A DNA stretch of 32,000 bases, taken from Candidatus Altimarinota bacterium. GTDB taxonomy: Bacteria > Patescibacteriota > Gracilibacteria > UBA1369. The notes beneath the pieces were generated by a model. The model was not told the DNA's origin, searched no databases, and saw nothing but the letters and a program-made list of their open reading frames with translations. Each line of letters starts with the position of its first letter. Within the stretch, counting starts at the first letter, position 1. The DNA lies in assembly GCA_041659405.1 (NCBI GenBank), contig JBAZYK010000003.1, positions 30,001 to 62,000 of the forward strand. Reading direction: 5' to 3'. Shown here piece after piece: positions 23-19,684 of this stretch. A program made the position numbers and the translations under genes.

Positions 23-2110
23 ATGAACACAGCCAAAAAACTCCTAAAATTCGGTGAATGTCTCAACTTTTCAGATGAAAATCTGAAAGGAAGATTTGTG
101 TTTCAAACCGCCAGCACAGGCGGAGCTGGTGGAACCGCTGAAGGTGCCGCAAAAGACAAACCACCGGTTGCGGTTCCGGAAACTAAAGAAACTGGCCCAA
201 AAGTACCGGAAGCAGACAAAGCAAAAAAAGCAGCAGAAATTCATGGCGAAACAAGGGCCCTCCTAAAGGCTGAAATGGAAAAGAAATTGCAGGAAATCGC
301 AGCCAGAAAAGAAGCCATCACCAAAGAAAAAACAGATAATGATGCTGAACTAAAAAAAATCCTCGGAGCAAAAGACGAATGGTCTACACGTCAACCGGAT
401 TTTGACTTAAACACTCCTGCAAAAATTAAAATACCAGATACCACTGCAATTGGAAAATTAGCTGGAAGTTTAGTTGGAGATGTTGACGCGACCCCATCCA
501 GAATTGCCACACAGGCAGAAAAAACTTTTGCAAAAGCCGAAAACCCAACAGCAGACACAAAACCTGAACTCGTTAAACTTGGCGAATTTTTAAAATTAAT
601 CACTCTCCCGGAATTTCCACAAAGCCAGGGGAACAGGAATATTTTACGAGACACTGTTTCTACTTTGATCAACGAGTATCTTCACCACATGCCACAGCCG
701 GTAACCAAGGAATCATCCGAAGGTTACAAAGATCAACTTATGGGTCGATTTCAAGCTTTTGGTGAAAAAATTCAAGCTCAAGCAAACGGCAAACCATTGG
801 AACTTATGATTGGTTTAAGCGCATATCTCAAAAAAATCGATCCGACTTTTGATTTCATCAATGCCAATGGAACCTTTCAGCCTGAAGGATTAAAAAATTT
901 ATTAGTCCTGACTGATCCTGCAACCTTATTGGAAAATTTTCAAAAAAATCAAAATATTGATAAAGAATCGGGCAATCTTTCAAGAGACAAAATAAATGGA
1001 GAAAGTGCATTAGCCACGGCTCAAGAACAACCAGTCGACGCTAAAAAAATGATTCAAGATGGAACACTTAAATTTACAGCAAGAACCATCACTCTTCCGG
1101 CAGAAGCCGATAAAATTGATGAATTTCTAAAAGAAGAATTCGGCAAAGCCTTAGACCCAAAACTTAATTCAAACCTAAAAGAAGCAGCCATAGCTTACGC
1201 CATGGAAAAAGCCAAAGACCTCAAACAACCGGGTCAAAAATTGATCTTGGCCGAAAACGGAGAAAGCGCTGCTGTAAGCGAAGCAGCTGAAGCCCAAAAG
1301 AAAAAAGAAGCCGAAGAAACTGCCAAAAAATTAGCTGAACAAGCTTCAACTATGGCCGGTAATCCGGATGTAAAACCTGGACAAGAAAGCGAATTGGGCA
1401 TTGCAAGTTTTGGGGCTTTAATTGCTAAATTTTTTGAATACATAGCCGACCTCCTGAAAAATTTTGGAGGATTCAATTTTGGTTCAAAAGAAGTTAATAA
1501 AAACCTGGAAGCCAGACTTAAAAACTGGACTCCATTACCAACCGAAGAAGAACTTAAAGAAGTCGGAAAATTTGAAGCCGCCATACTAAAAGGTATTCCA
1601 AAAATCAACAAAAAGAATCTGGCAAAATTATTGGAAAATAGAGATGAAATGCGTAATCACATTTTCACAAGCAACCCAGGCAACTTAAGCTGGGAAACAT
1701 ATTTATTTGACCCAAAAAAAGGCCGCATAACCGCAGAAGAGCGCGCCAAACTTGAAGACCAAACCAAAGAACTTAAACCAAGCGAAATCAGCACAATGAT
1801 TATGATGAAAGATCCGAAAAAGGCTCCTGAACAAACTGCTGCTGCCGCTACTGCAACACCGGCAGTCGCACCAAGCCAAACACCAGCAACCGAAACACCG
1901 GCAGTCGCACCAAACCAAACCCCAGCAACGACATCACCAACAACCCCCGAAGTTGTACCAGCAACACCACCGCCACCATTAAACCATGAAGTGGCAACAA
2001 ATATACCACCAACTGCAGCTCCAAAATCAGCACCTACCCCGCCAGCAAACCCTGAAGTTGCATCTGCTCCAACACCCGCTCAAACAACTCCACCAGTTAA
2101 GCCTTTATAA
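23..2110 (+). CDS. hypothetical 695-aa protein; charged/helical body with Pro/Thr/Ala-rich C-terminal tail; no recognisable domain
   Basis: Long uninterrupted ORF with codon usage like its neighbours. No obvious signal peptide or TM segment. The last ~100 aa are PT-rich (TPAVAPSQTPATE repeats). TATAAT at 4-9 lies upstream of the ATG. Confidence 0.6.
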   Translation: MNTAKKLLKFGECLNFSDENLKGRFVFQTASTGGAGGTAEGAAKDKPPVAVPETKETGPKVPEADKAKKAAEIHGETRALLKAEMEKKLQEIAARKEAITKEKTDNDAELKKILGAKDEWSTRQPDFDLNTPAKIKIPDTTAIGKLAGSLVGDVDATPSRIATQAEKTFAKAENPTADTKPELVKLGEFLKLITLPEFPQSQGNRNILRDTVSTLINEYLHHMPQPVTKESSEGYKDQLMGRFQAFGEKIQAQANGKPLELMIGLSAYLKKIDPTFDFINANGTFQPEGLKNLLVLTDPATLLENFQKNQNIDKESGNLSRDKINGESALATAQEQPVDAKKMIQDGTLKFTARTITLPAEADKIDEFLKEEFGKALDPKLNSNLKEAAIAYAMEKAKDLKQPGQKLILAENGESAAVSEAAEAQKKKEAEETAKKLAEQASTMAGNPDVKPGQESELGIASFGALIAKFFEYIADLLKNFGGFNFGSKEVNKNLEARLKNWTPLPTEEELKEVGKFEAAILKGIPKINKKNLAKLLENRDEMRNHIFTSNPGNLSWETYLFDPKKGRITAEERAKLEDQTKELKPSEISTMIMMKDPKKAPEQTAAAATATPAVAPSQTPATETPAVAPNQTPATTSPTTPEVVPATPPPPLNHEVATNIPPTAAPKSAPTPPANPEVASAPTPAQTTPPVKPL
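1856..1933 (+). repeat. two tandem copies of a 39-bp (13-codon) unit encoding TPAVAP(S/N)QTPAT(E/T)
   Basis: Copy 1 (1856-1894) and copy 2 (1895-1933) align directly and differ at only a few positions. They are in frame within the 23..2110 ORF. Confidence 0.8.
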
Positions 2111-3140: not shown

Positions 3141-3581
3141 TTAGTAAGTATTCGCGCTGGCAATTGCCGAATCCCCGCGAACAAAAATTATATCGGAAGC
3201 TTTTTTCATACCTTCAAGTCTTCCCGTATTAATAATATTATTCATCGATTTAGACTGAGCCAAACGCGCATCCTTAATTTCATTCTCACTTAAAAGCTGC
3301 TGGCGATCCGCTTCCAATTTTCTTAAATCGTACCCTTTTGTGGCAACCTGATTAAAATGCGCCAAATAAGCCATCCCAATCAAGACAATTCCCACAGCAA
3401 GAGCCATAATCAAAGTTACCGGCCCAAATTGCAGATTGATTTTTGGTAGAGCCACAGCCCTGGCAGCGCTTTGATTCGAAACAATCCCGGAACGCAAACT
3501 TGAACGTGAACGTCTATCCCACAATGACCTTTGAGCAAAACCGTTTCTATATGGACTGCGTGATAGTGAAAGTTGGGACAT
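3141..3581 (-). CDS. FtsL-like bitopic cell-division protein
   Basis: Lies immediately downstream of rsmH, the canonical dcw position. Single TM (VTLIMALAVGIVLIGMAYLAHF) followed by a coiled-coil-like segment (DLRKLEADRQQLLSENEIKDARLAQ) and an LEGMKKA...IIFV tail. Confidence 0.55.
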   Translation of the reverse strand: MSQLSLSRSPYRNGFAQRSLWDRRSRSSLRSGIVSNQSAARAVALPKINLQFGPVTLIMALAVGIVLIGMAYLAHFNQVATKGYDLRKLEADRQQLLSENEIKDARLAQSKSMNNIINTGRLEGMKKASDIIFVRGDSAIASANTY

Positions 3582-5379: not shown

Positions 5380-5407
5380 TTTACCTCAAAGCAAAAAACC
5401 TTATAAT
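5380..5407 (+). promoter_or_regulatory. sigma70-like promoter TTTACC-16-TATAAT placed for a leaderless transcript of the 5414 gene
   Basis: The consensus -10 TATAAT at 5402-5407 ends 6 nt before the ATG at 5414. There is no room for an SD. Confidence 0.45.
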
Positions 5408-5413
5408 ATCAGC

Positions 5414-5893
5414 ATGATATATCTCCCTCCGGAACTTCTGGTTCTCTTTACATCAATGCTTCCAATTGTGGAACTCCGCGGAGGCATCCCCTTAGGTCTT
5501 CTTTTGCATTTACCAATAGAAGCCGCTTTTTTTTGGGCGGAAATCGGCAACATGATTCCGATCTTTTTTATTTTGAAACTGCTCGGCCCCGTTTCTGATT
5601 TCCTCATCAAACATTCCAAGTTTTTTGAAAAATTTTTCCATAAACTTTTCACCATAACGCGTGAAAAACATGGCCACAAAATGCAAAAATGGGGTTCGGT
5701 CTTTCTTGTCATATTTATTGCGATTCCCCTGCCCGGCACCGGCGCCTGGACCGGAGCATTGTTGGCCTTTTTGTTTGATATTCCTTTCTGGAAAGCGGTT
5801 TTACTTATTTTAATCGGCAACCTTGCCGCCGGCCTATTGATCAGTTTTGGCTTTGGATCAGCCATCGAAGTGGCAAAATTGTTCGTAAAATAA
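5414..5893 (+). CDS. small multidrug-export-like membrane protein (COG2426 / Sm_multidrug_ex family)
   Basis: N-terminal LPIVELRGGIPLGL signature and four hydrophobic segments. The 159-aa length is typical of the family. Confidence 0.7.
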   Translation: MIYLPPELLVLFTSMLPIVELRGGIPLGLLLHLPIEAAFFWAEIGNMIPIFFILKLLGPVSDFLIKHSKFFEKFFHKLFTITREKHGHKMQKWGSVFLVIFIAIPLPGTGAWTGALLAFLFDIPFWKAVLLILIGNLAAGLLISFGFGSAIEVAKLFVK

Positions 5894-5927
5894 AATTTTA
5901 TTTGACATTTATTAATCGATATATAAA

Positions 5928-6224
5928 ATGCCAACTCAAATTTTATGTTTTTTAAATATGCCTTTTTTGGAAGACGATTGTCATCAACAGCATCATACAG
6001 AAGCTGATGGAGAACCATTAACTAAATGTGCGAGGTTAATACTTGAAGCAAAAAAACAGGATCCCTCAATTCCTATTTGTAATGTAATTTGCCCAATTTC
6101 AAAAAAAACTTCCCCCGTAGGGATTAAACTAGCTGTTCATGATCGTTGCCACATGTCTTTAACAACTCTTAAAGCCTTGCAAAGTGGACTAACAAGGCAA
6201 GTATTTCAAGTTTTGAAATACTAG
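5928..6224 (+). CDS. questionable hypothetical Cys/His-rich 98-aa ORF
   Basis: It is the only sizeable ORF in the 333-bp gap between convergent genes. There is no homology I recognise, and it overlaps a shadow ORF on the other strand. Confidence 0.25.
   Translation: MPTQILCFLNMPFLEDDCHQQHHTEADGEPLTKCARLILEAKKQDPSIPICNVICPISKKTSPVGIKLAVHDRCHMSLTTLKALQSGLTRQVFQVLKY
6200..6222. terminator. perfect 10-bp-stem hairpin (AGTATTTCAA-GTT-TTGAAATACT) between convergent genes; possible bidirectional terminator
   Basis: The inverted repeat was read directly. It is AT-rich and has no flanking U-tract, so terminator function is uncertain. Confidence 0.35.
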
Positions 6225-6226
6225 CT

Positions 6227-6976
6227 TCAATTCTTCAAAAACTCCTTCACTTCCGAAATCTTTGCCCCTTCACGCAAAATCACTGCGTGGCCATTTTCAA
6301 AGCCAATAATTGTTGATGGAGGATTTTTCAACACGCCCGCGCCTGATTCAGAAACGCTCACCCCGGATTCAGACAAGCCAAGTTCTCCACCATCCAAGAC
6401 CAAAGCAATTTTTTCACTTTCCTGCAAAGCTCCTTTATACTGCTTCAAAAAATCAGCAACAGTGTACGCCTCCGGTTCACCAGCCAAATTTGCACTGGTA
6501 GTCGTAAGCGGACCACCAAAACCCGCAATCAACATTTGTGAAATCTCCGAATCCGGACAACGAACCCCAACATTAACCTGCCCTTCATTAAAAAAAGTCG
6601 GCAAAGTTTTTTCGGCTAATGGCTGGCGCACATGCTCATCAAAATTTTGATCTTCTTTCCGCGCCACTTTTTTCGGCAAAACCAACGTTACCGGACCCGG
6701 CCAAAATCGCTCTGCCAAGCGCAAAGCCACTTCATTAAATTCTGCATACTTCTTTGCCTCATCCAAATTTCGCACCATCATACTCACGGGCTTTTTAAAA
6801 TCGCGGCCCTTAGCCACATACAAATCCTGCAAAGCCTCCTGATTAAAAACATCCACCGCAAAACCATAACAAGTTTCTGTTGGATGAACCACCACGCCAC
6901 CCTGCTGCAAAAGCTTTACCGCTTTCGCAATAATTTCCGATTGAGGATTTTTGGGATTGATCGACACGATTTTCAT
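6227..6976 (-). CDS. tsaC: L-threonylcarbamoyladenylate synthase (TsaC/YrdC/Sua5 family, single domain)
   Basis: GGVVVHPTETCYGFAVD, AKGRDFKKPVSMMV, RFWPGPVTLVL and TTSANLAGEP motifs. Confidence 0.85.
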   Translation of the reverse strand: MKIVSINPKNPQSEIIAKAVKLLQQGGVVVHPTETCYGFAVDVFNQEALQDLYVAKGRDFKKPVSMMVRNLDEAKKYAEFNEVALRLAERFWPGPVTLVLPKKVARKEDQNFDEHVRQPLAEKTLPTFFNEGQVNVGVRCPDSEISQMLIAGFGGPLTTTSANLAGEPEAYTVADFLKQYKGALQESEKIALVLDGGELGLSESGVSVSESGAGVLKNPPSTIIGFENGHAVILREGAKISEVKEFLKN

Positions 6977-7140
6977 ATTTCCTTTAATTACTATTCAAGC
7001 TTCGCTATACTAGCGGCGAACAAAATTCCGGGCAAGCCCGATCAACGAGCACGAAACAAACCTCAAGCTCCCCTCACAATCCTAAAAAAACCCGGACACG
7101 ACTCCCCTATTTAAAAAAATATTTCCTAACCCCCCTTTTC

Positions 7141-8148
7141 ATGCCTACACGCCTTGCAATAAATGGTTTTGGCCGCATTGGACGCGAAATGTTTCGCATC
7201 GCTCTCACACGTAAAGATCTTGAAGTTGTTGCGATCAACAATCTTAGCGACAACAAAACCATGGCTCATCTTTTAAAATACGACTCCAATTACGGAATTT
7301 TGGACGCAGATGTGAAAATTGAAGATGAAACCAGCATCACCGTGAATGGCAAAAAAATCGCTTATTTCCAGGAAAAAGACCCAAGCATGATTCCTTGGGG
7401 AACCACCAAGGCCGATATCGTCCTTGAATCAACCGGCGTTTTTACCGATGGTGAAGCCGCAAAAAAACATCTTCATGACGGTGTTAAAAAAGTAATCATC
7501 ACCGCTCCTGGCAAAAATGTTGATGCTACTTTTGTTATTGGCGTAAACGAAAGCAGCTACGATCCTGCCAAACACAACGTAATTTCAAACGCTTCCTGCA
7601 CCACCAACTGCATGGCGCCTCTTACAAAGGTCATCAACGACACCCTCAAAATCAAACGTGGACTTATGACCACAATTCATTCCTATACTAACGATCAACA
7701 AATTCTTGATCTTCCCCATAAAGATCCTCGCCGTGCCCGTGCCGCCGCACTTTCCATGATTCCAACCAGCACCGGCGCCGCAACTGCAGTTACAACCGTT
7801 ATTCCTGAACTTAAAGGCAAATTAAACGGCTTCTCGGTCCGCGTTCCAACCCCAACTGTTTCTTTGCTTGATTGTGTCTTCGAAGTCGAAAAATCCACAA
7901 CTGTAGAAGAATTAAACGGAATTTTAAAGCAAGCCGCAGAAGGTCCGCTCAAAAATATTTTGGCTTACAATGAACTTCCACTTGTTTCCGTTGATTACAA
8001 AGGCAACACACATTCTTCAATTATTGACGGGCTTTCCACCATGGTTATGGAAGGAACAATGATCAAAGTAGTGGCCTGGTACGACAACGAATGGGGCTAT
8101 TCTTGCCGCGCAATTGACTTGGCTGCCCTGATGGGTGCAAAATTGTAA
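7141..8148 (+). CDS. gap: type I glyceraldehyde-3-phosphate dehydrogenase
   Basis: INGFGRIGR Rossmann start, SNASCTTNCMAPL active-site block and WYDNEWGYS C-terminal block. Confidence 0.95.
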   Translation: MPTRLAINGFGRIGREMFRIALTRKDLEVVAINNLSDNKTMAHLLKYDSNYGILDADVKIEDETSITVNGKKIAYFQEKDPSMIPWGTTKADIVLESTGVFTDGEAAKKHLHDGVKKVIITAPGKNVDATFVIGVNESSYDPAKHNVISNASCTTNCMAPLTKVINDTLKIKRGLMTTIHSYTNDQQILDLPHKDPRRARAAALSMIPTSTGAATAVTTVIPELKGKLNGFSVRVPTPTVSLLDCVFEVEKSTTVEELNGILKQAAEGPLKNILAYNELPLVSVDYKGNTHSSIIDGLSTMVMEGTMIKVVAWYDNEWGYSCRAIDLAALMGAKL

Positions 8149-9820: not shown

Positions 9821-11842
9821 ATGTCAAAAATCATTGGAATTGATCTTGGTACAACCAACTCCTGCGTTGCAGTTATGGAAGGCTCGGAACCGGTCGTTAT
9901 CCCAAATGTGGAAGGCCACCGCACCACTCCTTCAATTGTAGCCATCAAAAATGGTGAACGTTTGGTGGGTGTTACCGCAAAAAGCCAATCTGTAACCAAT
10001 CCGGAAAACACCATTTTCTCGGCAAAACGTTTTGTTGGCCGCATGTTCAAAGAAGTGGAACAGGACGCCAAACGCATGCCTTTTAAAGTTGTTAGTGGCC
10101 GTGGCGGCGAAGCGGAAATCGTGCTCGACGGAAAAGAGCATCGTCCTGCGGAAATTTCTTCCATGGTTTTGGCAAAATTGAAAGCCGATGCGGAAGCGTA
10201 CTTAGGAGAAACTGTAACTGAAGCCGTTATTACGGTCCCAGCCTACTTTAATGACGCTCAACGTCAGGCCACCAAAGATGCCGGTAAAATTGCCGGTCTT
10301 GATGTGAAAAGAATTATTAACGAGCCAACTGCTGCCGCTCTTGCGTACGGCCTGGACAAAAACAAAGCCAAAGAAAAGAAAGTTGCCGTGTTTGATTTTG
10401 GTGGAGGTACCTTTGATATTTCCATTTTGGAGCTTGGCGAAGGCGTTTTTGAAGTACTTTCAACCAATGGCGACACTCAACTTGGTGGTGACGATATGGA
10501 TCAGCAAATCGTAACCTGGTTATTGGCCGAGTTCAAAAAAGATCAAGGACAAGACCTTTCCGGCGATCGTGTAGCGCTACAACGTCTGCGTGATGCTGCT
10601 GAAAAAGCCAAGATCGAACTTTCAACTCTAAACGAATCGGAAATTAATTTGCCGTTTATTTCTATGGATAAAGGCGGCTCTCCAAAACATTTCAACTTAA
10701 AATTAACACGTGCAAAGTTGGAGGATTTGGTGGCTGATTTAATTGAAAGAACAGTTGGCCCATGCAAAAAAGCCATTGAAGATGCCAAAATTTATTTAAG
10801 TGATCTTGATGAAATTATTTTAGTTGGAGGTATGACCCGCATGCCGGCAATTCAACACAAAGCCAAAGAAATTTTCGGCAAAGAGCCTCATCGTGGCATT
10901 AATCCGGATGAAGTTGTGGCGATTGGTGCCGCAATTCAGGGCGGCGTGCTGCAGGGAAATGTGAAGGACATTATTTTGTTGGATGTGACTCCCCTTTCAC
11001 TTGGAATTGAAACTTTAGGCGGAGTTGCCACAAAATTGATCGAGCGCAACACCACTATCCCAACTTCCAAATCGCAAGTTTTCTCTACAGCTGCGGATAA
11101 TCAGACATCTGTAGAAATTCATGTGGTTCAGGGTGATCGTCCAATGGCTGCAGATAACAAAGATTTGGGCCGATTTATTCTTGATGGAATTCCATCCGCA
11201 CCTCGCGGCGTTCCTCAAATTGAAGTAACTTTTGATATTGATGCGAACGGAATCATCAACGTAAAAGCAAGCGACAAAGCCACAAATAAAGTTCAACATA
11301 TTACCATTACCGGTTCCAGCAATATTCCGGAAGCCGAGCTGGAAAAAATGCGTAAAGAAGCTGAACTGCATGCCGAAGAAGACAAGAAAAAGAAGGAAGC
11401 CGTTGAAGAAAGAGTCAAAGCCGAAGGTTTGGTTTTGCAATCAGAAAGAACCCTGCGTGATGCCGGAACCAAGGTAAGCGACGAAATCAAAAAACCGGTT
11501 ACAGAAAAAATCGACACACTCAAGAAAATTTTAGAAAACAAGGACGCCAAACCGGAAGAAATCAAAAAAGCCTACGATGAACTAAGCGACGCCATCCAAA
11601 AAGTTGGCGCGGAAATGTATAAAACAGCTGGCACAGCCGGAGCGAATGCGCAGGGTGCTACAGGTGATGCCGGCACAGGCGAAACAGCCAGTGGCGCAAA
11701 CGCAGGAGCGGGAGCCGCAGGCGAATCCGCATCAGGCGCAGCCGACGACGGCACCAAAGTCTACGAAAAAGGCAAACGCCCGGAAGACGGCACAAGCGGC
11801 GAAGGCCCGGTAGAAGGCGAAGTGGTGGATGATAAGAAATAA
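9821..11842 (+). CDS. dnaK: molecular chaperone DnaK (Hsp70) with Gly/Ala-rich C-terminal tail
   Basis: [22 protein letters not shown]-type block ([13 protein letters not shown]) and [11 protein letters not shown] motifs. 673 aa. Confidence 0.97.
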
Positions 11843-12122
11843 CACCAACCCCATGCCCACTTTAGAAAGTCTTCAGCAAGAAATCAACGAAATCAAAGCA
11901 CGTAATCAGCGCGTCGAAAAAGACAAAGCTTGGGAAAAAAGCTGGTCCCGCAAAATTTTGATCGCGCTGCTTACGTACATCGTCATCGTAATTTTCTTCT
12001 CCACGGCAAATTTGCCAAACCCATTTTTTAACGCAATTGTCCCAACTTTGGGATTCTTGCTTTCAACCCTAACCATCCCCCTCGTTAAAAAATGGTGGAG
12101 CGGGCGGGTTTACAAAAGGTAG
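11829..12122 (+). CDS. small two-TM membrane protein overlapping the dnaK stop (alternative start 11853)
   Basis: The ORF overlaps the dnaK 3' end by 14 nt. It has a coiled-coil-like N-terminus and then two hydrophobic segments ([32 protein letters not shown]). Confidence 0.45.
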
Positions 12123-12165
12123 ATACAAATACGTCATTAGCAGTCGTATCCCTTAAAACACAACT

Positions 12166-12681
12166 ATGAGCACAAGAGATGACTTTGATCCAAAAACTAT
12201 TGAGGCAATAGGAAAACGGGCCTCTTATATTTGTTCAAATCCGACTTGCAAGAGCTTAACTCTATGCCCTTCAGCAACGGATGAAAGCAAATTTATATAT
12301 GTAGGCAAAGCAGCCCACATTACCGCCGCAGCAGTAGGCGGCCCACGATACGATGAAACACTTTTATCCGACGAGAGAAAATCAATCGGTAATGCAATTT
12401 TTCTATGCTCAAATTGTGCCGATATGATCGACAAAAATAAAGGCATTGATTTCACCATCGATCAACTGAAAAAGTGGAAACAGGAACACGAAACATGGAC
12501 CGCCCAGAATTTAAACAAAAGTTTAAACTCTCCCATTACTACCATCGACGGCGAACACATCGCTAGAGGAAAAGGCAATGTCACCGGAATCAGAACAACC
12601 AAGCCTACATTCTTTAAACCGGGAACAAAATCTTTAGCCGAAGGAGAAGGCAACATAACAGCAACTCACATAGGTTCTTAA
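12166..12681 (+). CDS. His-Me finger (HNH)-like protein with degenerate C-terminal His
   Basis: CSNPTCKSLTLCP ... AAHITAAAVGGPRYDE ... NAIFLCSNCADMIDKN matches the C-x-C / AHI...GGPR / N..LC..C(H)..ID layout of HNH nucleases, with Ala in place of the last His. The C-terminal part has an internal duplication (ARGKGNVTG / AEGEGNITA). Confidence 0.55.
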   Translation: MSTRDDFDPKTIEAIGKRASYICSNPTCKSLTLCPSATDESKFIYVGKAAHITAAAVGGPRYDETLLSDERKSIGNAIFLCSNCADMIDKNKGIDFTIDQLKKWKQEHETWTAQNLNKSLNSPITTIDGEHIARGKGNVTGIRTTKPTFFKPGTKSLAEGEGNITATHIGS

Positions 12682-12691
12682 CTTTTTAAAC

Positions 12692-12928
12692 ATGCAAACA
12701 GGTTCCTTTTTTGGATACAAGTGCCCACAATGCCATAGTGCCGTTGACATTGCCGCCATCGCTGGCAGTAATGAGCTGCTTTGCTCACAATGCAAAATAC
12801 CAATGGTTCCCGATCCAAATGGTCGCACCAGTGCCGCAAATGTTTTCTGCGCAAACTGTAAAGCTACTTACGGACTGGTGAATTCAGATAAATGTCCTCA
12901 GTGTGGAGGCCCGTTTTCTTCAATGTAA
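12692..12928 (+). CDS. 78-aa double zinc-ribbon protein
   Basis: Four CxxC pairs (CPQCH, CSQCK, CANCK, CPQCG). Starts 10 nt after the upstream stop. Confidence 0.5.
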   Translation: MQTGSFFGYKCPQCHSAVDIAAIAGSNELLCSQCKIPMVPDPNGRTSAANVFCANCKATYGLVNSDKCPQCGGPFSSM

Positions 12929-12972
12929 TAATAACGGGATACAGCGGCTAACAGTGCCCATTTTTAATCGTT

Positions 12973-13479
12973 ATGGAACAAAAATCTGGAAAACTTATAA
13001 TTGATAACAATGGCAAACTCATTCTAACAGGTGAAGTGTTTGACGACCACGGCTCATTTGATTTTAATGCCTTTGTAGATACAGGATCCTCTTTCGGTAT
13101 GGTTCTCACTAAACAACTGGCCGATGCTGTTTGTGCTAAATATGAACGAGATATAAATATAAGCATCGGTGGTGGTTCAAATGCTACAACTGGGCAAATA
13201 TGCAGAGCAAATCTTCGATTTGGAGATTTAACTCTACAGAATTATGAAGTAACAGTCGTGAATGGCAATAGGAATCTAGTTGGAATTAAGTTTTTTCAGG
13301 ATACAGGAATAATTATATTGATAGATTTTCACAAAGGCAAAACAATGGGTGGAGCAATAACTACTGATAGAAGATTCGCAAAAGCAATAGGTAAAACATC
13401 ACATTGTTTTTTTGTACATAATAACGACATAACAAAATCAAATGAGCCGTGTCCAATATGTGGAGCACAAGGTGAATAA
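12973..13479 (+). CDS. retropepsin-like (clan AA) aspartic protease domain protein with C-terminal CPxCG knuckle
   Basis: AFVDTGSSFGMVL (D-T-G-S catalytic motif), ISIGGG flap-like segment, a hydrophobic-G-hydrophobic motif (NLVGIKFF) and IILIDFHKGK. This is the standard order for bacterial retropepsin-like domains. Confidence 0.65.
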   Translation: MEQKSGKLIIDNNGKLILTGEVFDDHGSFDFNAFVDTGSSFGMVLTKQLADAVCAKYERDINISIGGGSNATTGQICRANLRFGDLTLQNYEVTVVNGNRNLVGIKFFQDTGIIILIDFHKGKTMGGAITTDRRFAKAIGKTSHCFFVHNNDITKSNEPCPICGAQGE

Positions 13480-13488
13480 AAATGAGCA

Positions 13489-13523
13489 GTGCAGCGCATT
13501 AGCGGTTCGGTTGCGGCCTAACC
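13489..13523 (+). repeat. copy c of a ~31-nt intergenic motif (CAGCGC-N-T-N-A-N-CGGTT...GCGG-N-CT)
   Basis: Matches about 23 of 31 positions against 31593-31623 by hand alignment. Confidence 0.4.
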
Positions 13524-13524
13524 C

Positions 13525-13571
13525 AAGTTGACTGGTTGTGGCCTTCGGCACATTATACAATCAGTCAACTT
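13525..13571 (+). other. 47-nt extended hairpin in the protease/metallopeptidase spacer
   Basis: AAGTTGACTG (13525-13534) pairs perfectly with CAGTCAACTT (13562-13571). The stem extends about 6 more pairs with G-U. The apical GCC-TTC-GGC can also pair. No U-tract follows. Confidence 0.55.
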
Positions 13572-13618
13572 CGCCAACATGCGGACGTTATGAGAAATAA
13601 ATTATTTTTTGCCCCCTT

Positions 13619-14782
13619 ATGGAAAACGAAATAAGCAACGAATACATCGAAAATGCAATAAACGAGTTAGAAAAATTCTTTGGCGTTAAAGAGCCAGTTT
13701 TTAGTGAAAATATTTTTTCATTAATTAGGGGAGGTAAGGTCAAAGATGCAATGAAATTGATAGCTTTTCAACTTGGCTTGCCTATTGATATCAATATTAC
13801 AAATGTCCCGAATGACTATAGAGCCCAGAGCGGTGACAACCAATTTCATAGCACCCACCTAGTTAATGTTCATCAACACGGATCTGGTAGCGAAGGTATT
13901 ACAGCTCAAGTAACCATTCCTGGCAATTTACCATTTTACGGATCTTCAGCACTAAACGGATATCCTATCAATGTTAAGATAAGTAAAAATTGTACGGAAC
14001 ATACTGTCGTATTCGCAATGATAATGGCTCATGAACTTTCACATATATTACTGTATTCATTAAGTCATTCTAAAAAGGAAAATGAATTTTATACTGACCT
14101 TACCGCCATAATGTTAGGTTTCCAAAATATTTTCCAAAACGGGCGCAAAATTACAAAAACTGATGTAGAAGAAGGGTTTATGAGTACAACGACTAGAACA
14201 CAGACGACAACTTATGGGTACTTAAATGATAATCAGTTTAATTTTGCTCACAATAAAATAAATTTAATATTAGAAAAAAACAGAGAAAGAAAAAAACTTT
14301 TATCAGAGGAATTCAAAAGATTTACAAAGTTATTATCAAAATATGAAAAAACGCTATTTAAATTTAAAAATTTTTTAGAATATCTAACAAAAAATACTAA
14401 CAAAAAAATCTCTGGCGAAGATGGTAAAAAGATGATGTCGTTTTTCCAACCTGGATATATGGATGAGCTATGCTTAGTACCAAAAGAATATAAGGATAAG
14501 CAACAAATAATCAAAAAATTTTTAAAAGAGCTTTCCCATTATACGGATCAAAGATTAAATCAATTATCAGCTTATGCAAACAATCTGAAAAAATATTCCA
14601 GTGAATTAAAAATTCAACTCATTCCTCTCAAAAAAGATGTTAAAATGTTGAAGAAATATGTTAGCTATAAATATAGGATAAAAAAAACTCTCTCTCTTTT
14701 GTTTAAAGGAGCAAAAAATAATTTACATCTCATAACACGACATATGAAATTAAAGAAAAATTCACATAAAATCCCTCAGTAA
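13619..14782 (+). CDS. HExxH zinc-metallopeptidase-like protein with Lys-rich helical C-terminal half
   Basis: VVFAMIMAHELSHILLYS followed about 15 aa later by ENEFYTDLTAIMLGF (a gluzincin-like third ligand). The layout resembles ImmA/IrrE- or SprT-type cores. The C-terminal ~190 aa are K/L/E-rich. The gene is visibly more A+T-rich than its neighbours. Confidence 0.5.
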   Translation: MENEISNEYIENAINELEKFFGVKEPVFSENIFSLIRGGKVKDAMKLIAFQLGLPIDINITNVPNDYRAQSGDNQFHSTHLVNVHQHGSGSEGITAQVTIPGNLPFYGSSALNGYPINVKISKNCTEHTVVFAMIMAHELSHILLYSLSHSKKENEFYTDLTAIMLGFQNIFQNGRKITKTDVEEGFMSTTTRTQTTTYGYLNDNQFNFAHNKINLILEKNRERKKLLSEEFKRFTKLLSKYEKTLFKFKNFLEYLTKNTNKKISGEDGKKMMSFFQPGYMDELCLVPKEYKDKQQIIKKFLKELSHYTDQRLNQLSAYANNLKKYSSELKIQLIPLKKDVKMLKKYVSYKYRIKKTLSLLFKGAKNNLHLITRHMKLKKNSHKIPQ

Positions 14783-15048
14783 AATACGAAACGAAGTACT
14801 CAAACTTACCGATAAAAAAAATAAATCATCGCATCACTAAATTGACTACCAGTCCAACTCCTGCCACAACTCAAAATTTCGGGACGGGACGGCGAGAACG
14901 ACCATTTTAGGCCTCAAACAAGCCAACTTGTTTTTATGAGAATACCTAAGGAGTAACATTCCTCACACATAAACGCCCAGGCACGACCAACCTATTTCAT
15001 AAAAATTTCATCTCCCGTTTAGAAATCGTTAATGTTTCTGGATTATAT

Positions 15049-15106: not shown

Positions 15107-15376
15107 ATGGCTACATTCGACATCACAAGTCTTTCCTCAAAAGGACAAATCGTTATCCCCAACAATCTAAGAAAAGAACTGGGAATGACACCGGGAATTA
15201 AGCTTATTATTTTCACTGATGGCTCTAATCTGCTCATAAAACCTGTGCCATCCCCAAAAATAGAAACCTTTCAAAAACTCATCAAAGAAAGTCGGGCATT
15301 AGTCAAAAAGAATAAATTCACCGCCTCAGATGTGGAAAAAATCATCAAACAAACCAGAAACGAAAATCGTTCTTGA
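15107..15376 (+). CDS. AbrB/MazE/SpoVT-family antitoxin
   Basis: LSSKGQIVIPNNLRKELGMTPGIKLIIFTDGSNLLIKPV is a classic SpoVT-AbrB swapped-hairpin domain. The gene overlaps a PIN-like reading frame at its 3' end. Confidence 0.8.
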   Translation: MATFDITSLSSKGQIVIPNNLRKELGMTPGIKLIIFTDGSNLLIKPVPSPKIETFQKLIKESRALVKKNKFTASDVEKIIKQTRNENRS

Positions 15377-15498
15377 TACAAATGTTCTAATTTCCGGGAT
15401 CTTCTGGAGATCAAGATCTACTCACATTAAAAACCATATCCAAAATCAAAATACTAACGCCTACAGATTTCCTGAAAGTTTTAAGAAAATCCCTTTAA
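15330..15498 (+). pseudogene. PIN-domain (VapC/PIN_3-like) toxin remnant with internal deletion and frameshift
   Basis: One frame (15363-15407) reads KIVLDTNVLISGIFW, a canonical PIN N-terminus with the first acidic residue. The +1 frame (15406-15498) reads GDQDLLTLKTISKIKILTPTDFLKVLKKSL-stop, a canonical PIN_3 C-terminus. The central bulk of a normal ~130-aa domain is missing. Confidence 0.6.
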
Positions 15499-15502
15499 AA
15501 CC

Positions 15503-15826
15503 CTATCTATACAAATAAACCGTGCCGCGGAAATTTTCAGCTCCATCATTCCCATCCACACCATAATCTATTTGCAACCTCAAAGTGGTGCGAGGGTACT
15601 TCCTGTTAATTGCAACAGCCTTCTGGTTCGCAGAAACATCTCTATGATCAAGCCAAGCAACCACTTTCCAACCTTCATTTTGCAGGGCATTAATAAAATA
15701 AAGATTTTGCTGACTGATTCCTAAATCTTTCAAAAATGTAAACACCGTAACTTTATCAACCTTATCAAGCTCCAAATATTGCGACTCATCAATTATCGGA
15801 ACTTTTAAATCATCCGGTCCACCCAT
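15503..15826 (-). CDS. hypothetical 107-aa protein
   Basis: Clean ORF that converges on the PIN remnant with a 5-nt gap. No motif recognised. Confidence 0.45.
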   Translation of the reverse strand: MGGPDDLKVPIIDESQYLELDKVDKVTVFTFLKDLGISQQNLYFINALQNEGWKVVAWLDHRDVSANQKAVAINRKYPRTTLRLQIDYGVDGNDGAENFRGTVYLYR

Positions 15827-16031: not shown

Positions 16032-16292
16032 TCAAGCTACTTTCCCCCATGTTTCCTTAACTTTATCGATTTTCTTGGCATCGTTCAAATCAGCATCATT
16101 GATGTAATCCTCCAAATAACCACAAGCGGAACAGATATAACAATCCAAAAAAAGCCTTGAAAAAGACAAGGGGCCACCCAAAGGAAGCAAACATCTCTGT
16201 CCTGCTTTTTGGTTTAATTTGTCGGTGTAAATTTCATTTCCACTACACTTGGGACATTTCCCTGTTTGAAGGCCGGAAGTCGGTTTGCTCAT
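16032..16292 (-). CDS. 86-aa zinc-ribbon protein
   Basis: CPKCSGNE ... CSACGYLE pairs form a single ribbon. Followed by the terminator at 15922-15957. Confidence 0.5.
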   Translation of the reverse strand: MSKPTSGLQTGKCPKCSGNEIYTDKLNQKAGQRCLLPLGGPLSFSRLFLDCYICSACGYLEDYINDADLNDAKKIDKVKETWGKVA

Positions 16293-17096: not shown

Positions 17097-17226
17097 AATT
17101 TTGGGGAATTAGGAGATAAACAAACACCGAGCATTGTATAACAACTTCACACATTTCATTACCAAGATAATCTGGACAAAAACGCAATTTTTTGCTTTAA
17201 TAGCGATCCGTTTTAACAAAACACCC

Positions 17227-17958
17227 ATGAGTTATTTGATACAAAAAGGAACCACCATAACAGATATGGCCCTCGACGCAGACATAGAAGAAGATGATGA
17301 TGGTCTTCGCAATCAACTTGATATAATTTTCGAAGGAGAATCCCCAAAACCTTATCCGGATGAAAGTGTACTCAGCAACAGCCATTTCTATTTAGCGCTC
17401 ACCCTCGATCGATACAAAAAACTTGCTCCTTTTATTTGCAAAACATTAGCCCAATTTGAAAATTTCGAGGAACTCGCAAAATGTGTTGATGAAAAAAAGA
17501 AACCCCGTTTTAGATTTCTTAAAAAGATAATAACTTTATTATCCCAAATTCAGGATCCAAAAATCAGGCAAGCTACCTATGAAGCCTTAAAAAAGGAAGC
17601 TGGCATAACATTACGAATACACTCAACCCGTGCCGCGATTCTAGAATCTTCAATACCTCAAGATGAACTATCAAATATGACTGATTCTGAAAGCCGGGAC
17701 ATAGAAATCGAAAAAGAACTTACCGTCCTGCTTTTTACCTGGATTTCCAAAGCGGACACTCGGGAAGATAAAGCAAAGACCCAGCTATTTTTCCGGACAC
17801 CAAACTATATTTATTTCAAACTTCTGATCAAAACACATCATCGGATTGAAGAAGATGAATTATTACAAGAAATCCTGGAAAAATTAAATTCAATTTCTTC
17901 ACCGGAAAAACAACAAGAAATTTTTGACCGCCTGCACAAGACCAATTGCATTTCCTAA
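17227..17958 (+). CDS. hypothetical acidic/helical protein (ORF opens at 17134; ATG at 17227 preferred)
   Basis: Long ORF with no motif recognised. The first 31 codons from 17134 look like non-coding upstream sequence. Confidence 0.5.
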   Translation: MSYLIQKGTTITDMALDADIEEDDDGLRNQLDIIFEGESPKPYPDESVLSNSHFYLALTLDRYKKLAPFICKTLAQFENFEELAKCVDEKKKPRFRFLKKIITLLSQIQDPKIRQATYEALKKEAGITLRIHSTRAAILESSIPQDELSNMTDSESRDIEIEKELTVLLFTWISKADTREDKAKTQLFFRTPNYIYFKLLIKTHHRIEEDELLQEILEKLNSISSPEKQQEIFDRLHKTNCIS

Positions 17959-19324: not shown

Positions 19325-19684
19325 ATGTCCGAACTAAGCCCAGAACAAGAAGACATCGCCACACTGAATCACAGTGGTATAAGAACAAAAGAGCACACCC
19401 CAACAACCTCTACAGAAAAGATTCAAAATATTATTGCCGTTGCCCTGTTTGCAACAGGGGTTATAGGAACAGGTTATTTGATGAAAAAACAATATAGTGA
19501 AATATCGGATTTGGCAGATAAAGGATCATGCGCAGCCGTCAGGGAAAATTGCCAACGCAAACTACCCGACCAAATTTCAGCTAAACAGGCCCGGGAAAGA
19601 ATTACTGACTGTGTAGAAGAAACCAGTCCTCAATTAAACCGCATAAGAACAAGAAAAAACCTTCCACCAATGAATTGCCAATAA
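19325..19684 (+). CDS. hypothetical single-TM protein with four Cys in the C-terminal domain
   Basis: Starts 5 nt after serS. TM segment IIAVALFATGVIGTGYLM. Confidence 0.45.
   Translation: MSELSPEQEDIATLNHSGIRTKEHTPTTSTEKIQNIIAVALFATGVIGTGYLMKKQYSEISDLADKGSCAAVRENCQRKLPDQISAKQARERITDCVEETSPQLNRIRTRKNLPPMNCQ

What the first reader, a model, noticed from the sequence alone, without database searches (positions are those of the whole stretch)
12166..14782. Candidate novel four-gene module: HNH-like, double Zn-ribbon, retropepsin-like protease and HExxH metallopeptidase-like proteins
Four co-directional ORFs, with gaps of 10, 44 and 139 nt, are wedged between the dnaK cluster and conserved housekeeping genes.

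Each ORF carries a compact catalytic-type or metal-binding signature:
- AHI...GGPR...N..LC..C-A-..ID (His-Me finger)
- four CxxC pairs
- DTGS with the flap and G-hydrophobic motifs of clan AA proteases
- HELSH plus a downstream Glu

No integrase, transposase, phage structural gene or tRNA flanks the module. The last gene is conspicuously A+T-rich. The module is followed by a decayed toxin-antitoxin pair and orphan small genes, the typical context of defence or conflict islands.

I do not know of a described system that pairs a nuclease-like sensor/effector with two mechanistically different proteases. By analogy with protease-based abortive-infection logic (for example the HExxH protease Lit), this could be a proteolytically activated conflict system. 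That is a hypothesis, not a demonstrated function.
Basis: inference. Interest (0 to 1): 0.75.

Follow-up and report, generated by a model that had tools for sequence, protein, structure and literature searches.

The report
Three unrelated integron cassettes, not one system
The four neighbouring genes are not one defence system but three separate mobile gene cassettes of the integron type parked side by side after dnaK; only the nuclease and its small zinc-ribbon partner truly belong together, as an untested two-gene candidate anti-phage module found across many phyla.

Summary
The four ORFs and their motifs are real. The four-gene system is not supported. In more than 100 loci that encode homologues, proteins 3 and 4 never lie next to the HNH/Zn-ribbon pair or next to each other.

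Only p1 (HNH) and p2 (4xCxxC Zn ribbon) are linked. 56 of 58 p1 homologues that keep the C-terminal beta-tail have p2 directly downstream. None of 53 HNH-only homologues has it.

Each unit has its own inverted-repeat bracket and its own G+C (0.42-0.46, 0.35, 0.30). For p1-p2 and p4 the bracket lies exactly where DNA homology to other genomes starts and stops.

Elsewhere these units are integron gene cassettes:
- They start with GTTRRRY and end with RYYYAAC.
- An attC hairpin follows p1-p2 in 11 of 44 loci, against 24 of 880 random windows.
- The p4 homologues in L128 and L008 have intact attC sites.
- A p3 homologue sits beside an integron-integrase-like fragment.

In the window the attC sites are decayed and no integrase is present, so this is a fossil cassette array.

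- p1 carries the Cap5/SPARHA-type immune-effector HNH domain. With p2 it is a plausible streamlined defence or toxin-immunity cassette.
- p3 is a rare retropepsin-like protease with a Zn knuckle.
- p4 is a zincin-like domain plus coiled coil, from a large uncharacterised family.

None of these functions has been tested.

The parts
12137..12952 (+). Cassette 1: the p1-p2 unit. DNA homology to the p1-p2 units of L130, L016 and L048 starts and stops at these coordinates.
   Evidence: alignment of boundaries; unit 12137-12952, 816 nt; homologous units are 799-849 nt.
12137..12152 (+). Left end of cassette 1, (A)TTAGCAGTCGTATCCC. This is a decayed copy of the GTTRRRY core plus left inverted-repeat arm (GTTAGCCGCCATATCCC in L130).
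   Evidence: In the window alone this repeat is not significant (85 of 300 shuffles reach it); it is recognised by homology.
12166..12681 (+). p1: HNH (His-Me finger) nuclease of the Cap5/SPARHA type (residues 1-~120) plus a conserved C-terminal beta-hairpin tail (residues 125-169).
   Evidence: PADLOC PDC-M68A 1.7e-26, SAVED-HNH effectors 1e-16, SduA 7.5e-9. PDB profile hits: 9OM4 at 1.4e-15, Cap5 7RWM at 5e-7. AF2 model pLDDT 75, tail pLDDT 87-95. Foldseek top hit Cap5 8FMF, probability 0.97.
12692..12928 (+). p2: 78-aa double zinc ribbon with four CxxC pairs, the obligate partner of p1.
   Evidence: Present directly 3' of p1 in 56 of 58 loci with tail-bearing p1 and in none of 53 HNH-only loci. 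The start overlaps the p1 stop by 4 nt in about half of the loci. Weak Pfam DZR hits.
12936..12952 (+). Right end of cassette 1, GGGATACAGCGGCTAAC: right inverted-repeat arm ending in the inverse-core-like GGCTAAC. The rest of its attC is missing; the next GTTAT lies only 17 nt away.
   Evidence: no hairpin in 12930-12985.
12952..13491 (+). Cassette 2: the p3 unit, bracketed by the 18-nt inverted repeat 12952-12969 / 13474-13491. Its outer core sequence, present in L133 as GTTGTAC...GTACAAC, is deleted here.
   Evidence: window I2; L133 I1, 25 nt, 84% complementary. (0 of 300 shuffles reach the observed repeat score).
12973..13479 (+). p3: retropepsin-like aspartyl protease (DTGS) with a C-terminal HC-x3-H...C-x2-C zinc knuckle.
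   Evidence: Pfam Asp_protease_2 4.5e-7 and gag-asp_proteas 7.7e-7, both above cut-off. Conserved residues. Only 26 homologues were found in 5.8 billion proteins.
13495..13593 (+). Decayed attC site between p3 and p4. It contains an L''-like stretch, GCCTAAC at 13516-13522, an internal hairpin at 13525-13539 / 13557-13571, an L'-like stretch, and GAC followed by R' GTTATGA at 13587-13593. It is homologous to the long attC sites of L048.
   Evidence: Alignment. DNA fold (-20.3 kcal/mol, z -2.2). Pattern CAACT-N-CGTTAT.
13587..14736 (+). Cassette 3: the p4 unit. Close DNA similarity to the p4 units of L128 and L008 starts at the left arm and ends exactly at the right one; about 30 nt upstream there is only weak similarity, which is the 3' part of the preceding attC. 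It is bracketed by a 40-nt inverted repeat, 13587-13626 / 14697-14736, running GTTATGAG...CTCATAAC.
   Evidence: The arms co-vary (GTTATGAG in the window and L128, GTTATATG in L008, in both arms). 0 of 300 shuffles reach the observed score.
13619..14782 (+). p4: zincin-like HExxH+E domain (residues 1-~200) followed by a beta hairpin and a long coiled coil (residues 204-~365). A 1-nt deletion removed the family's stop codon and added a 22-aa read-through tail.
   Evidence: AF2 pLDDT 86.5, pTM 0.80. Invariant H138/E139/H142/E156. Sub-threshold SprT-like hits in 9 of 43 members and Peptidase_M48 hits in 7 of 43. 1246 clusters at 50% identity. Frame comparison.
14729..14806 (+). Remnant of p4's attC. 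R'' CTCATAAC is intact, L''/L' are decayed, and R' has mutated (GAAACGAAGTAC where relatives have GAAACGTTAGC).
   Evidence: Alignment with the intact attC sites of L128, L048 and L008. No hairpin folds here.
15107..15518 (+). MazE/AbrB-type antitoxin gene plus a truncated PIN toxin remnant. It may be a further decayed cassette, but no cassette ends were found around it.
   Evidence: Pfam MazE_antitoxin 4e-8; PIN_3 N-terminal 36 positions, E 0.023.

Best explanation
Window ~12137-14806 is a decayed integron-type gene-cassette array: a cluster of cassettes without an integrase, of the kind called CALIN. It was inserted 14 nt downstream of the small membrane-protein gene that follows dnaK. It holds three independently acquired cassettes.

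**Cassette 1 (p1 + p2)** is the only real multi-gene module.
- p1 is an HNH DNase of the family used as the killing effector in CBASS (Cap5) and in short-Argonaute SPARHA systems. Its catalytic and Zn ligands are intact.
- p1's C-terminal beta-hairpin tail and the translationally coupled 4xCxxC zinc-ribbon protein p2 always occur together.
- Inference: p2 binds the tail and keeps the nuclease off, acting as sensor/regulator or as immunity protein. A trigger then lets the HNH domains oligomerise and cut DNA, as in Cap5 and SPARHA.

**Cassette 2 (p3)** is a solitary retropepsin-like aspartyl protease with a zinc knuckle.

**Cassette 3 (p4)** is a solitary zincin-like metalloprotease fused to a coiled coil.

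The three are neighbours because integron-type recombination stacks cassettes, not because they work together.

**Shown:** unit boundaries, pairing statistics, cassette ends and attC sites in relatives, domain homologies.

**Inferred:** the p1-p2 interaction, a defence or toxin role, and protease activity of p3 and p4.
For: **No co-occurrence.** p3 and p4 homologues are absent from all 32 genome loci and 80 metagenome loci fetched with the p1 family. p4 homologues are solitary in unrelated contexts. p3 homologues lie after Shedu SduA, after a resolvase, or after an integrase fragment.

**The p1-p2 pair.** 56 of 58 against 0 of 53, Fisher p = 8e-30. Overlapping stop and start codons are common.

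**Unit boundaries.** DNA homology starts and stops at each unit's inverted repeat. G+C differs per unit.

**Integron signature.**
- An unbiased search for the best inverted repeat returns GTTRRRY...RYYYAAC brackets in many p1-p2 loci.
- attC-like sites follow p2 in 11 of 44 loci against 24 of 880 random windows, p = 1.4e-7.
- The L079 attC folds at -41.8 kcal/mol, z -6.3.
- L008 has three attC sites and L048 has five, each set belonging to one family.
- The p4 homologue in L128 has an intact attC.
- The fragment upstream of the p3 homologue in L133 matches integron integrase TIGR02249 best, at 5.7e-33.
- The window's p3|p4 spacer aligns with the attC sites of L048.

**The HNH family.**, and PMC12738770, which reports that the SPARHA HNH superimposes on Cap5 and that both are activated by oligomerisation.
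Against: - No attC in the window is intact, and my RYYYAAC/GTTRRRY hairpin scan found no convincing site there.
- The window's p1-p2 inverted repeat is not significant on its own.
- No integron integrase lies within the 32 kb.
- IntegronFinder's attC covariance model could not be run.
- About three quarters of p1-p2 loci show no attC by my criteria. In Dehalococcoidia the pair sits inside the dnaK-dnaJ operon without cassette ends, so the pair also spreads or persists in other ways.
- No experiment supports a defence role. p2, p3 and p4 have no PADLOC hit, and p1 matches PDC-M68A only over the HNH half.
Confidence: 0.8

Rival explanations
1. The four genes form one functional operon, a proteolytically activated conflict system. 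It would be newly assembled in this lineage from pre-existing parts.
For: The genes are co-directional and tightly spaced. The attC sites between them are decayed, so the block can no longer be shuffled. p3 relatives lie in defence islands next to Shedu/NYN or HEPN-MNT.
Against: The arrangement is seen only in this strain (L001-L003 are identical copies). No other locus joins any two of the three units. G+C is 0.42-0.46, 0.35 and 0.30 for the three units. p4 has its own conserved upstream region and its own inverted repeat. Nothing conserved links a protease to p1-p2.
Confidence: 0.04
2. p1-p2 is a toxin-immunity (addiction) pair rather than an anti-phage system. p1 would be a DNase toxin and p2 its downstream immunity protein, as in colicin E7/E9 DNase-Im operons. 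The pair would stabilise cassette arrays or mobile elements by post-segregational killing.
For: The gene order (nuclease first, small partner second), the translational coupling, the strict co-occurrence and carriage on cassettes fit this reading. From general knowledge, toxin-antitoxin cassettes are common in chromosomal integrons. A decayed MazE-PIN pair lies nearby.
Against: The HNH subtype is the one used as a regulated effector in CBASS, SPARHA and Shedu-like proteins. p2 shows no similarity to Im proteins. The two readings are not mutually exclusive, since abortive-infection systems are regulated toxins.
Confidence: 0.3
3. The inverted repeats that bracket each unit act in RNA or DNA regulation rather than as cassette ends. 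Possibilities are 5'-3' mRNA pairing that controls translation or stability, as in hok-type toxin mRNAs, or an invertible on/off switch.
For: The left arm of the p4 repeat covers the start codon and the right arm covers the family's stop codon. The arms co-vary. A promoter-like TTGACT-17-CATTAT sits inside the hairpin upstream.
Against: The co-variation is what integron cassettes predict, because a cassette's 5' core derives from its own attC R' and must pair with its own R''. Relatives carry full attC hairpins just outside the right arm. No opposite-orientation copy was seen (L128/L129 and L008/L009 share one orientation), and no invertase is nearby.
Confidence: 0.1

Closest known systems
Integron gene cassettes, and clusters of attC sites lacking an integrase (CALIN); sedentary chromosomal integrons as stores of anti-phage cassettes (bioRxiv 10.1101/2024.07.02.601686)
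   Same: The units hold one or two genes, are co-directional and are tightly packed. Each starts with a GTTRRRY-like core and ends with an RYYYAAC-like inverse core that pairs with its own 5' end. In relatives they are followed by 60-140-nt imperfect-palindrome attC sites of one family per array. There is no target-site duplication. The cargo is small defence- or toxin-like genes.
   Different: In the window every attC is decayed or deleted and no IntI gene lies within 32 kb. The host is a Patescibacteria/CPR-type genome. I found no description of its attC family (...CACCCAAATTGC...GCAACTTC...GAAAC|GTTA) in the paper library. Recombination activity is untested.
Cap5 (the SAVED-HNH effector of CBASS) and the HNH-APAZ effector of SPARHA short-Argonaute systems (PMC12738770)
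   Same: p1 residues ~10-120 are homologous to their HNH domain and keep the catalytic His/Asn and the four Cys Zn ligands.
   Different: p1 has no SAVED or APAZ sensor domain, and no cyclase or Argonaute gene is nearby. In their place it has a 45-residue beta-hairpin tail and a separate 78-aa zinc-ribbon partner.
PADLOC candidate system PDC-M68 (protein A)
   Same: This is the best PADLOC hit of p1: 1.7e-26, p1 residues 7-121 against model positions 5-117 of 253.
   Different: Only the HNH half matches. p2 hits no PADLOC model. No paper in the library mentions PDC-M68. Its gene content and any experimental status could not be checked.
Colicin E7/E9 HNH DNase with a downstream immunity gene
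   Same: An HNH nuclease gene is followed immediately by a small, tightly co-inherited partner gene.
   Different: There is no sequence similarity to Im proteins, p2 is a zinc ribbon, and there are no translocation or receptor domains. This comparison comes from memory and was not tested.
   Same: p4 has an HExxH helix followed by a helix bearing a conserved Glu. Family members give sub-threshold SprT-like and Peptidase_M48 hits, and weak SprT-like fold hits appear in BFVD.
   Different: No hit reaches a curated threshold. There is no significant PDB fold match. p4 has a distinctive Thr-rich beta hairpin and a ~160-residue coiled coil. No similarity to Lit was detected.
Retropepsin-like bacterial aspartyl proteases (Pfam Asp_protease_2 / gag-asp_proteas, clan AA)
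   Same: p3 passes both Pfam thresholds and has the DTG(S) motif.
   Different: p3 carries an extra C-terminal HC...H...CxxC zinc knuckle. The family is very rare, with 26 homologues. It has no retroelement context.

Membership tests
Integron gene cassette | The cassette begins with the core site G|TTRRRY and ends with the inverse core RYYYAAC, which is complementary to its own 5' core. | tested here: met
   Met in relatives of all three units.
- p1-p2: GTTAGGC/GCCTAAC, GTTAAGC/GCTTAAC, GTTAGAC/GTCTAAC and others.
- p4: GTTATGAG/CTCATAAC with co-variation.
- p3 in L133: GTTGTAC/GTACAAC.

In the window itself p4 meets the test, p1-p2 meets it only partly (ATTAGCA / GGCTAAC), and p3 has lost its outer core.
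Integron gene cassette | An attC site lies 3' of the ORF, with the layout R''-L''-loop-L'-R', as an imperfect palindrome of ~57-141 nt. | tested here: inconclusive
   Clearly present after homologous cassettes: L079, L066, L063, L088, L048, L021, L023, L128, L008.

In the window only decayed remnants survive: 13495-13593, which aligns with the attC sites of L048, and 14729-14806. After p2 there is none. My motif and hairpin scan of the window found no convincing site. The IntegronFinder attC covariance model was not available.
Integron (complete) | An integron integrase IntI, a tyrosine recombinase with the IntI-specific insertion, lies next to attI and the first cassette. | tested here: not met
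   No tyrosine recombinase was found among the window ORFs that were scanned. Only L133-L135 show an IntI-like C-terminal fragment (TIGR02249 best hit at 5.7e-33, below the full-length cut-off) upstream of a p3 homologue. The window is therefore at most a CALIN-type remnant, not a complete integron.
CBASS (Cap5 effector) | A CD-NTase cyclase gene, plus an effector that has a SAVED or other nucleotide-sensing domain. | tested here: not met
   p1 matches only the HNH part of the SAVED-HNH models (PDB alignments). No cyclase-like neighbour appears in the window or among the neighbours of 135 p1-p2 loci.
Shedu (SduA) | The DUF4263 (SduA_C) PD-(D/E)xK nuclease domain. | tested here: not met
   p1 matches the PADLOC SduA model only over positions 30-121, the N-terminal HNH-like part. 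p1 ends at residue 171 and has no DUF4263. A genuine SduA lies next to a p3 homologue in L004-L006, but not in the window.
SPARHA (short pAgo, HNH-associated) | A short Argonaute gene, plus an HNH-APAZ partner. | tested here: not met
   The HNH domain is homologous (9OM4, 1.4e-15), but p1 has no APAZ domain and there is no pAgo neighbour.
HNH / His-Me finger nuclease | A beta-beta-alpha-metal fold with the catalytic His, the Asn, a metal ligand, and a structural Zn site (4 Cys). | tested here: met
   Invariant H51, N76, D89/N91 and C23/C28/C81/C84. The fold matches Cap5 with probability 0.97. Catalysis itself cannot be tested with these tools.
Clan AA retropepsin-like aspartyl protease (p3) | A D-T/S-G active-site loop in a single lobe that dimerises, and a Pfam Asp_protease_2 score above threshold. 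| tested here: met
   30.9 bits against a cut-off of 24.3, and 30.1 against 28.2. DTG is nearly invariant. Dimerisation and activity were not tested.
Zincin metallopeptidase (p4) | HExxH on a helix, plus a third zinc ligand, in a zincin alpha/beta fold. | tested here: inconclusive
   HExxH and E156 are invariant. The AF2 model places them on consecutive helices after a beta-sheet. No profile or fold hit is significant.
   No locus other than copies of the window's own (L001-L003) combines p1-p2 with p3 or p4, or p3 with p4.

The most novel reading that the evidence does not exclude
The p1-p2 pair is a new, autonomous, minimal anti-phage system. In it, a Cap5/SPARHA-type HNH effector is controlled not by a large sensor domain but by a 45-residue beta tail and a 78-aa zinc-ribbon protein. 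Integrons would spread it across bacterial phyla and into archaea. In addition, CPR/Patescibacteria would have active integrons with their own attC family, whose cassettes include the large uncharacterised zincin-coiled-coil family of p4.
Probability: 0.3. Interest if true: 0.6.

Novelty: new member of a known kind. Interest (0 to 1): 0.4.

Why it matters
This finding corrects an attractive but wrong reading. Adjacency in a cassette array is produced by recombination, so it is not evidence of shared function. Here the boundaries show up in the inverted repeats around the genes and not in the proteins.

It also yields concrete leads:
- A very compact (~0.8 kb) two-gene HNH module, conserved at 55-88% identity across distant phyla. 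It is easy to clone and test as a defence or toxin-immunity system.
- A family of more than 1200 clusters of solitary zincin-coiled-coil proteins carried on cassettes.
- Evidence that ultra-small CPR bacteria take part in integron-type cassette exchange through a recognisable attC family.

Tried and rejected
- **Genetic code 25.** The source is labelled Gracilibacteria, so I checked whether TGA read as Gly would change the ORFs. The four ORFs have no TGA and end in TAA, and the long housekeeping genes have no in-frame TGA.
- **p1 as a truncated Shedu or Cap5.** Rejected. The 170-180-aa form is conserved end to end in about 300 proteins.
- **A third conserved partner of p1-p2.** None was found. 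The neighbours are heterogeneous: OLD/Gabija-like ATPases, AbiV, TIR, restriction-modification genes, resolvases, housekeeping genes.
- **Transposon with terminal inverted repeats.** No target-site duplication and no transposase; attC sites explain the ends better.
- **PDB profile search for p4.** It returned only coiled-coil noise.
- **Simple attC scan of the window.** It returned no convincing site. The remnants were recognised only by aligning them with intact sites elsewhere.
- **Literature.** Searches for PDC-M68 and for integrons in CPR returned nothing specific.
- **Functional tie to DnaK/DnaJ.** I considered one because of the 4xCxxC motif in p2 and the position after dnaK in two phyla. 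I found no evidence beyond position.

Full report
**Observation.** The four co-directional ORFs exist exactly as described: p1 12166-12681 (171 aa), p2 12692-12928 (78 aa), p3 12973-13479 (168 aa), p4 13619-14782 (387 aa). A 100%-identical p3 in public data is labelled 'Candidatus Gracilibacteria', a group in which some lineages read TGA as glycine. I therefore checked the code. All four ORFs end in TAA and have no internal TGA, and the long housekeeping genes of the window (dnaK, rpoB/C-sized ORFs) are intact under the standard code. The ORF boundaries are safe. The window has no tRNA, and Pfam scans of its ORFs found no integrase or transposase.

**Domain identities.**
- p1 is an HNH nuclease.
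  - PADLOC hits: PDC-M68A 1.7e-26 (HNH half only), CBASS SAVED-HNH effectors ~1e-16, SduA 7.5e-9.
  - A family profile hits PDB 9OM4 at 1.4e-15 and Cap5 structures at 5e-7. 9OM4 comes from the SPARHA short-Argonaute/HNH study. That study reports that the SPARHA HNH superimposes on Cap5 and that both are activated by oligomerisation (PMC12738770).
  - The AF2 model of p1 (pLDDT 75) matches Cap5 best (Foldseek probability 0.97). It shows a confident C-terminal beta hairpin at residues 125-169.
- p2 is a four-CxxC double zinc ribbon, with only weak Pfam hits.
- p3 passes the Pfam thresholds for Asp_protease_2 and gag-asp_proteas. It has a conserved C-terminal HC...H...CxxC motif.
- p4 has an invariant HExxH and a downstream Glu, and a confident AF2 model (pLDDT 86.5).
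  - The model shows an alpha/beta domain with two consecutive ligand helices, a Thr-rich hairpin and a ~160-residue coiled coil.
  - There are only sub-threshold SprT-like and M48 hits and no significant fold match.
  - The family is large: 1246 clusters at 50% identity.

**Do the four genes travel together?** They do not.
- p4 homologues at 91%, 80%, 54%, 53% and 48% identity are solitary genes in unrelated neighbourhoods.
- p3 homologues lie after a Shedu SduA gene in a defence island, after a resolvase, or after an integrase fragment next to a HEPN-MNT pair.
- I fetched 32 genome loci and 80 metagenome loci with a p1 family profile. None contains a p3 or p4 homologue.
- The closest p1 relative (88% identity, L130) also lacks them.

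**What does travel together.** p1 and p2 are an obligate pair.
- Of the homologues that retain p1's C-terminal tail, 56 of 58 with enough downstream DNA have a p2 homologue immediately 3'.
- Of the 53 homologues that share only the HNH domain and carry other C-terminal domains (214-543 aa), none has p2 (Fisher p = 8e-30).
- In about half of the loci the p2 start overlaps the p1 stop by 4 nt.
- The pair occurs in Uhrbacteria, Saccharibacteria, Dehalococcoidia, Chloroflexia, Planctomycetota, Bacteroidota, Acidobacteriota and Proteobacteria. One record is labelled Euryarchaeota. Identity is 55-88%, which indicates horizontal spread.
- No third gene is conserved next to the pair. The neighbours include OLD/Gabija-like ATPases, AbiV, TIR, type II restriction-modification genes and resolvases, but also housekeeping genes.

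**The units are cassettes.** I aligned the window with other loci at the DNA level.
- For p4, close similarity starts at the left arm of a 40-nt inverted repeat (13587-13626) and ends at the outer edge of the right arm (14697-14736). About 30 nt upstream there is only weak similarity, which corresponds to the 3' part of the preceding attC. The flanks beyond are unrelated. The same repeat brackets the gene in L128 and L008, and both arms changed together there: GTTATGAG against GTTATATG.
- For p1-p2, homology starts at (G)TTAGC...TATCCC and ends at GGGATA...GCTAAC. Again these are co-varying inverted repeats.
- An unbiased search for the best inverted repeat across 49 p1-p2 loci returned brackets such as GTTAGGC...GCCTAAC, GTTAAGC...GCTTAAC and GTTAGACGG...CCGTCTAAC. 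These are the integron core (GTTRRRY) and inverse-core (RYYYAAC) sites.
- Directly outside the right arm, many loci carry a full attC-type imperfect palindrome that ends in the next GTTRRRY. The L079 site folds at -41.8 kcal/mol, z -6.3.
- By fixed criteria, 11 of 44 non-redundant p1-p2 loci have such a site, against 24 of 880 random windows from the same loci (p = 1.4e-7).
- L048 carries a p1-p2 unit 80% identical to the window's. It is a 4.9-kb array of five attC sites and four cassettes.
- L008 has three attC sites of one family, two of which flank the p4 homologue.
- The 91%-identical p4 homologue in L128 is followed by an intact attC that is about 85% identical to the one after p1-p2 in L048.
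- The p3 homologue in L133 is bracketed by GTTGTAC...GTACAAC. It is preceded by a 101-aa fragment whose best NCBIfam match is the integron integrase model TIGR02249, at 5.7e-33.

From established integron biology, a cassette's first six bases derive from its own attC R' site. This explains why each unit's 5' end is complementary to its own 3' inverse core and co-varies with it.

**State of the array in the window.** The array is decayed.
- The left end of cassette 1 reads ATTAGCA rather than GTTAGCC. Its inverted repeat is not significant on its own (85 of 300 shuffles reach it).
- After p2, the inverse core GGCTAAC is followed by only 17 nt before the next GTTAT, and no hairpin forms.
- p3 has lost the outer part of its bracket. 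Its inner 18-nt repeat is significant (0 of 300 shuffles).
- The p3|p4 spacer (13495-13593) aligns with the long attC sites of L048, but its R''/L'' half is degraded.
- After p4, only R'' and fragments remain.
- A 1-nt deletion removed p4's stop codon and added a 22-aa tail, which the AF2 model predicts with low confidence.
- No integrase lies within the 32 kb.
- G+C differs by unit: 0.42-0.46, 0.35 and 0.30.

The best description is a fossil cassette array of the CALIN type, inserted 14 nt after the small membrane-protein gene that follows dnaK. A decayed MazE-PIN pair and orphan small ORFs follow it.

**Mechanism.**
- Shown: p1 has every residue expected of an active Cap5/SPARHA-type HNH nuclease, and its tail and p2 are co-inherited.
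- Inferred for p1-p2: p2 binds the tail and restrains or licenses the nuclease, and activation proceeds by HNH oligomerisation, as in Cap5 and SPARHA. The pair acts either as a streamlined abortive-infection system or as a toxin-immunity addiction pair. I cannot separate these two readings.
- Inferred for p3 and p4: both are probably active proteases, because their catalytic residues are conserved. Their substrates are unknown, and nothing links them to p1-p2.

**Novelty.**
- Integron cassette arrays and defence cassettes are known (for example bioRxiv 10.1101/2024.07.02.601686).
- The cargo families here are uncharacterised.
- I found no description of the p1-p2 pair, of PDC-M68, or of integron cassettes in CPR bacteria in the searchable library. 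Absence from that library is weak evidence of novelty.
- I file the finding as a new member of a known kind, of moderate interest.

Noticed in passing
window 9821-12952; L017 3121-7903; L058 595-5101; L018; L051: The p1-p2 pair lies directly downstream of hrcA-grpE-dnaK in the window (a Gracilibacteria-labelled genome). In Dehalococcoidia it lies between dnaK and dnaJ, as little as 7-10 nt after the dnaK stop codon and without cassette ends. Two very distant lineages share the same neighbour. I cannot say whether this is chance, an insertion hot spot, or selection for heat-shock co-expression.
   Followed up: partly
window 13048-13065 and 13434-13451; L133 4339-4359 and 4730-4750: A perfect 18-nt inverted repeat lies inside the p3 coding sequence, 368 nt apart. 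It is conserved and longer (21 nt, 95% complementary) in the 80%-identical homologue in L133, and absent from the 61-66% homologues. The two arms encode the conserved HGSxDF and KSNEPCP motifs. Its function is unknown; an mRNA structure or a recombination relic are possibilities.
   Followed up: partly
L008 1981-2057, 5900-5977, 7111-7189; L048 781-905, 1465-1544, 1831-1947, 2761-2838, 3675-3798; L128 ~7112-7190: A recognisable attC family recurs on contigs that carry CPR-like cassettes. Its layout is yATAAC-A-L''...CACCCAAATTGC...GCAACTTC-L'-GAAAC-GTTA. In L008 it separates multi-gene restriction-modification/HATPase blocks as well as single genes. This suggests active integron-type arrays in these organisms.
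   Followed up: partly
window 13525-13571: A 15-nt palindrome (AAGTTGACTGGTTGT / ACAATCAGTCAACTT) overlaps a promoter-like TTGACT-17-CATTAT just upstream of p4. It is part of the decayed attC, but it could now serve as a promoter or operator for p4.
   Followed up: no
window 1-32000 (stop codons of 29 main ORFs): The public label is Candidatus Gracilibacteria, yet no long gene has an in-frame TGA. TGA ends only three small or accessory ORFs (6227-6976 on the minus strand, 15107-15376, 16032-16292 on the minus strand). The organism probably uses the standard code, unlike the code-25 Gracilibacteria.
   Followed up: yes
L004-L006 1671-7009: A p3 homologue (66% identity) sits in a compact defence island in the order DUF3800, MazG-like, SLFN-type helicase, Shedu SduA, p3 homologue, NYN nuclease. 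It is the only context in which p3 has a nuclease neighbour, and that nuclease is a different one from p1.
   Followed up: no
window 23-2110, 3141-3581, 5401-6018, 17134-17958, 19325-19684: Several sizeable ORFs elsewhere in the window (695, 146, 205, 274 and 119 aa) have no significant Pfam hit. The 695-aa ORF at the start of the window is the largest unannotated one.
   Followed up: no
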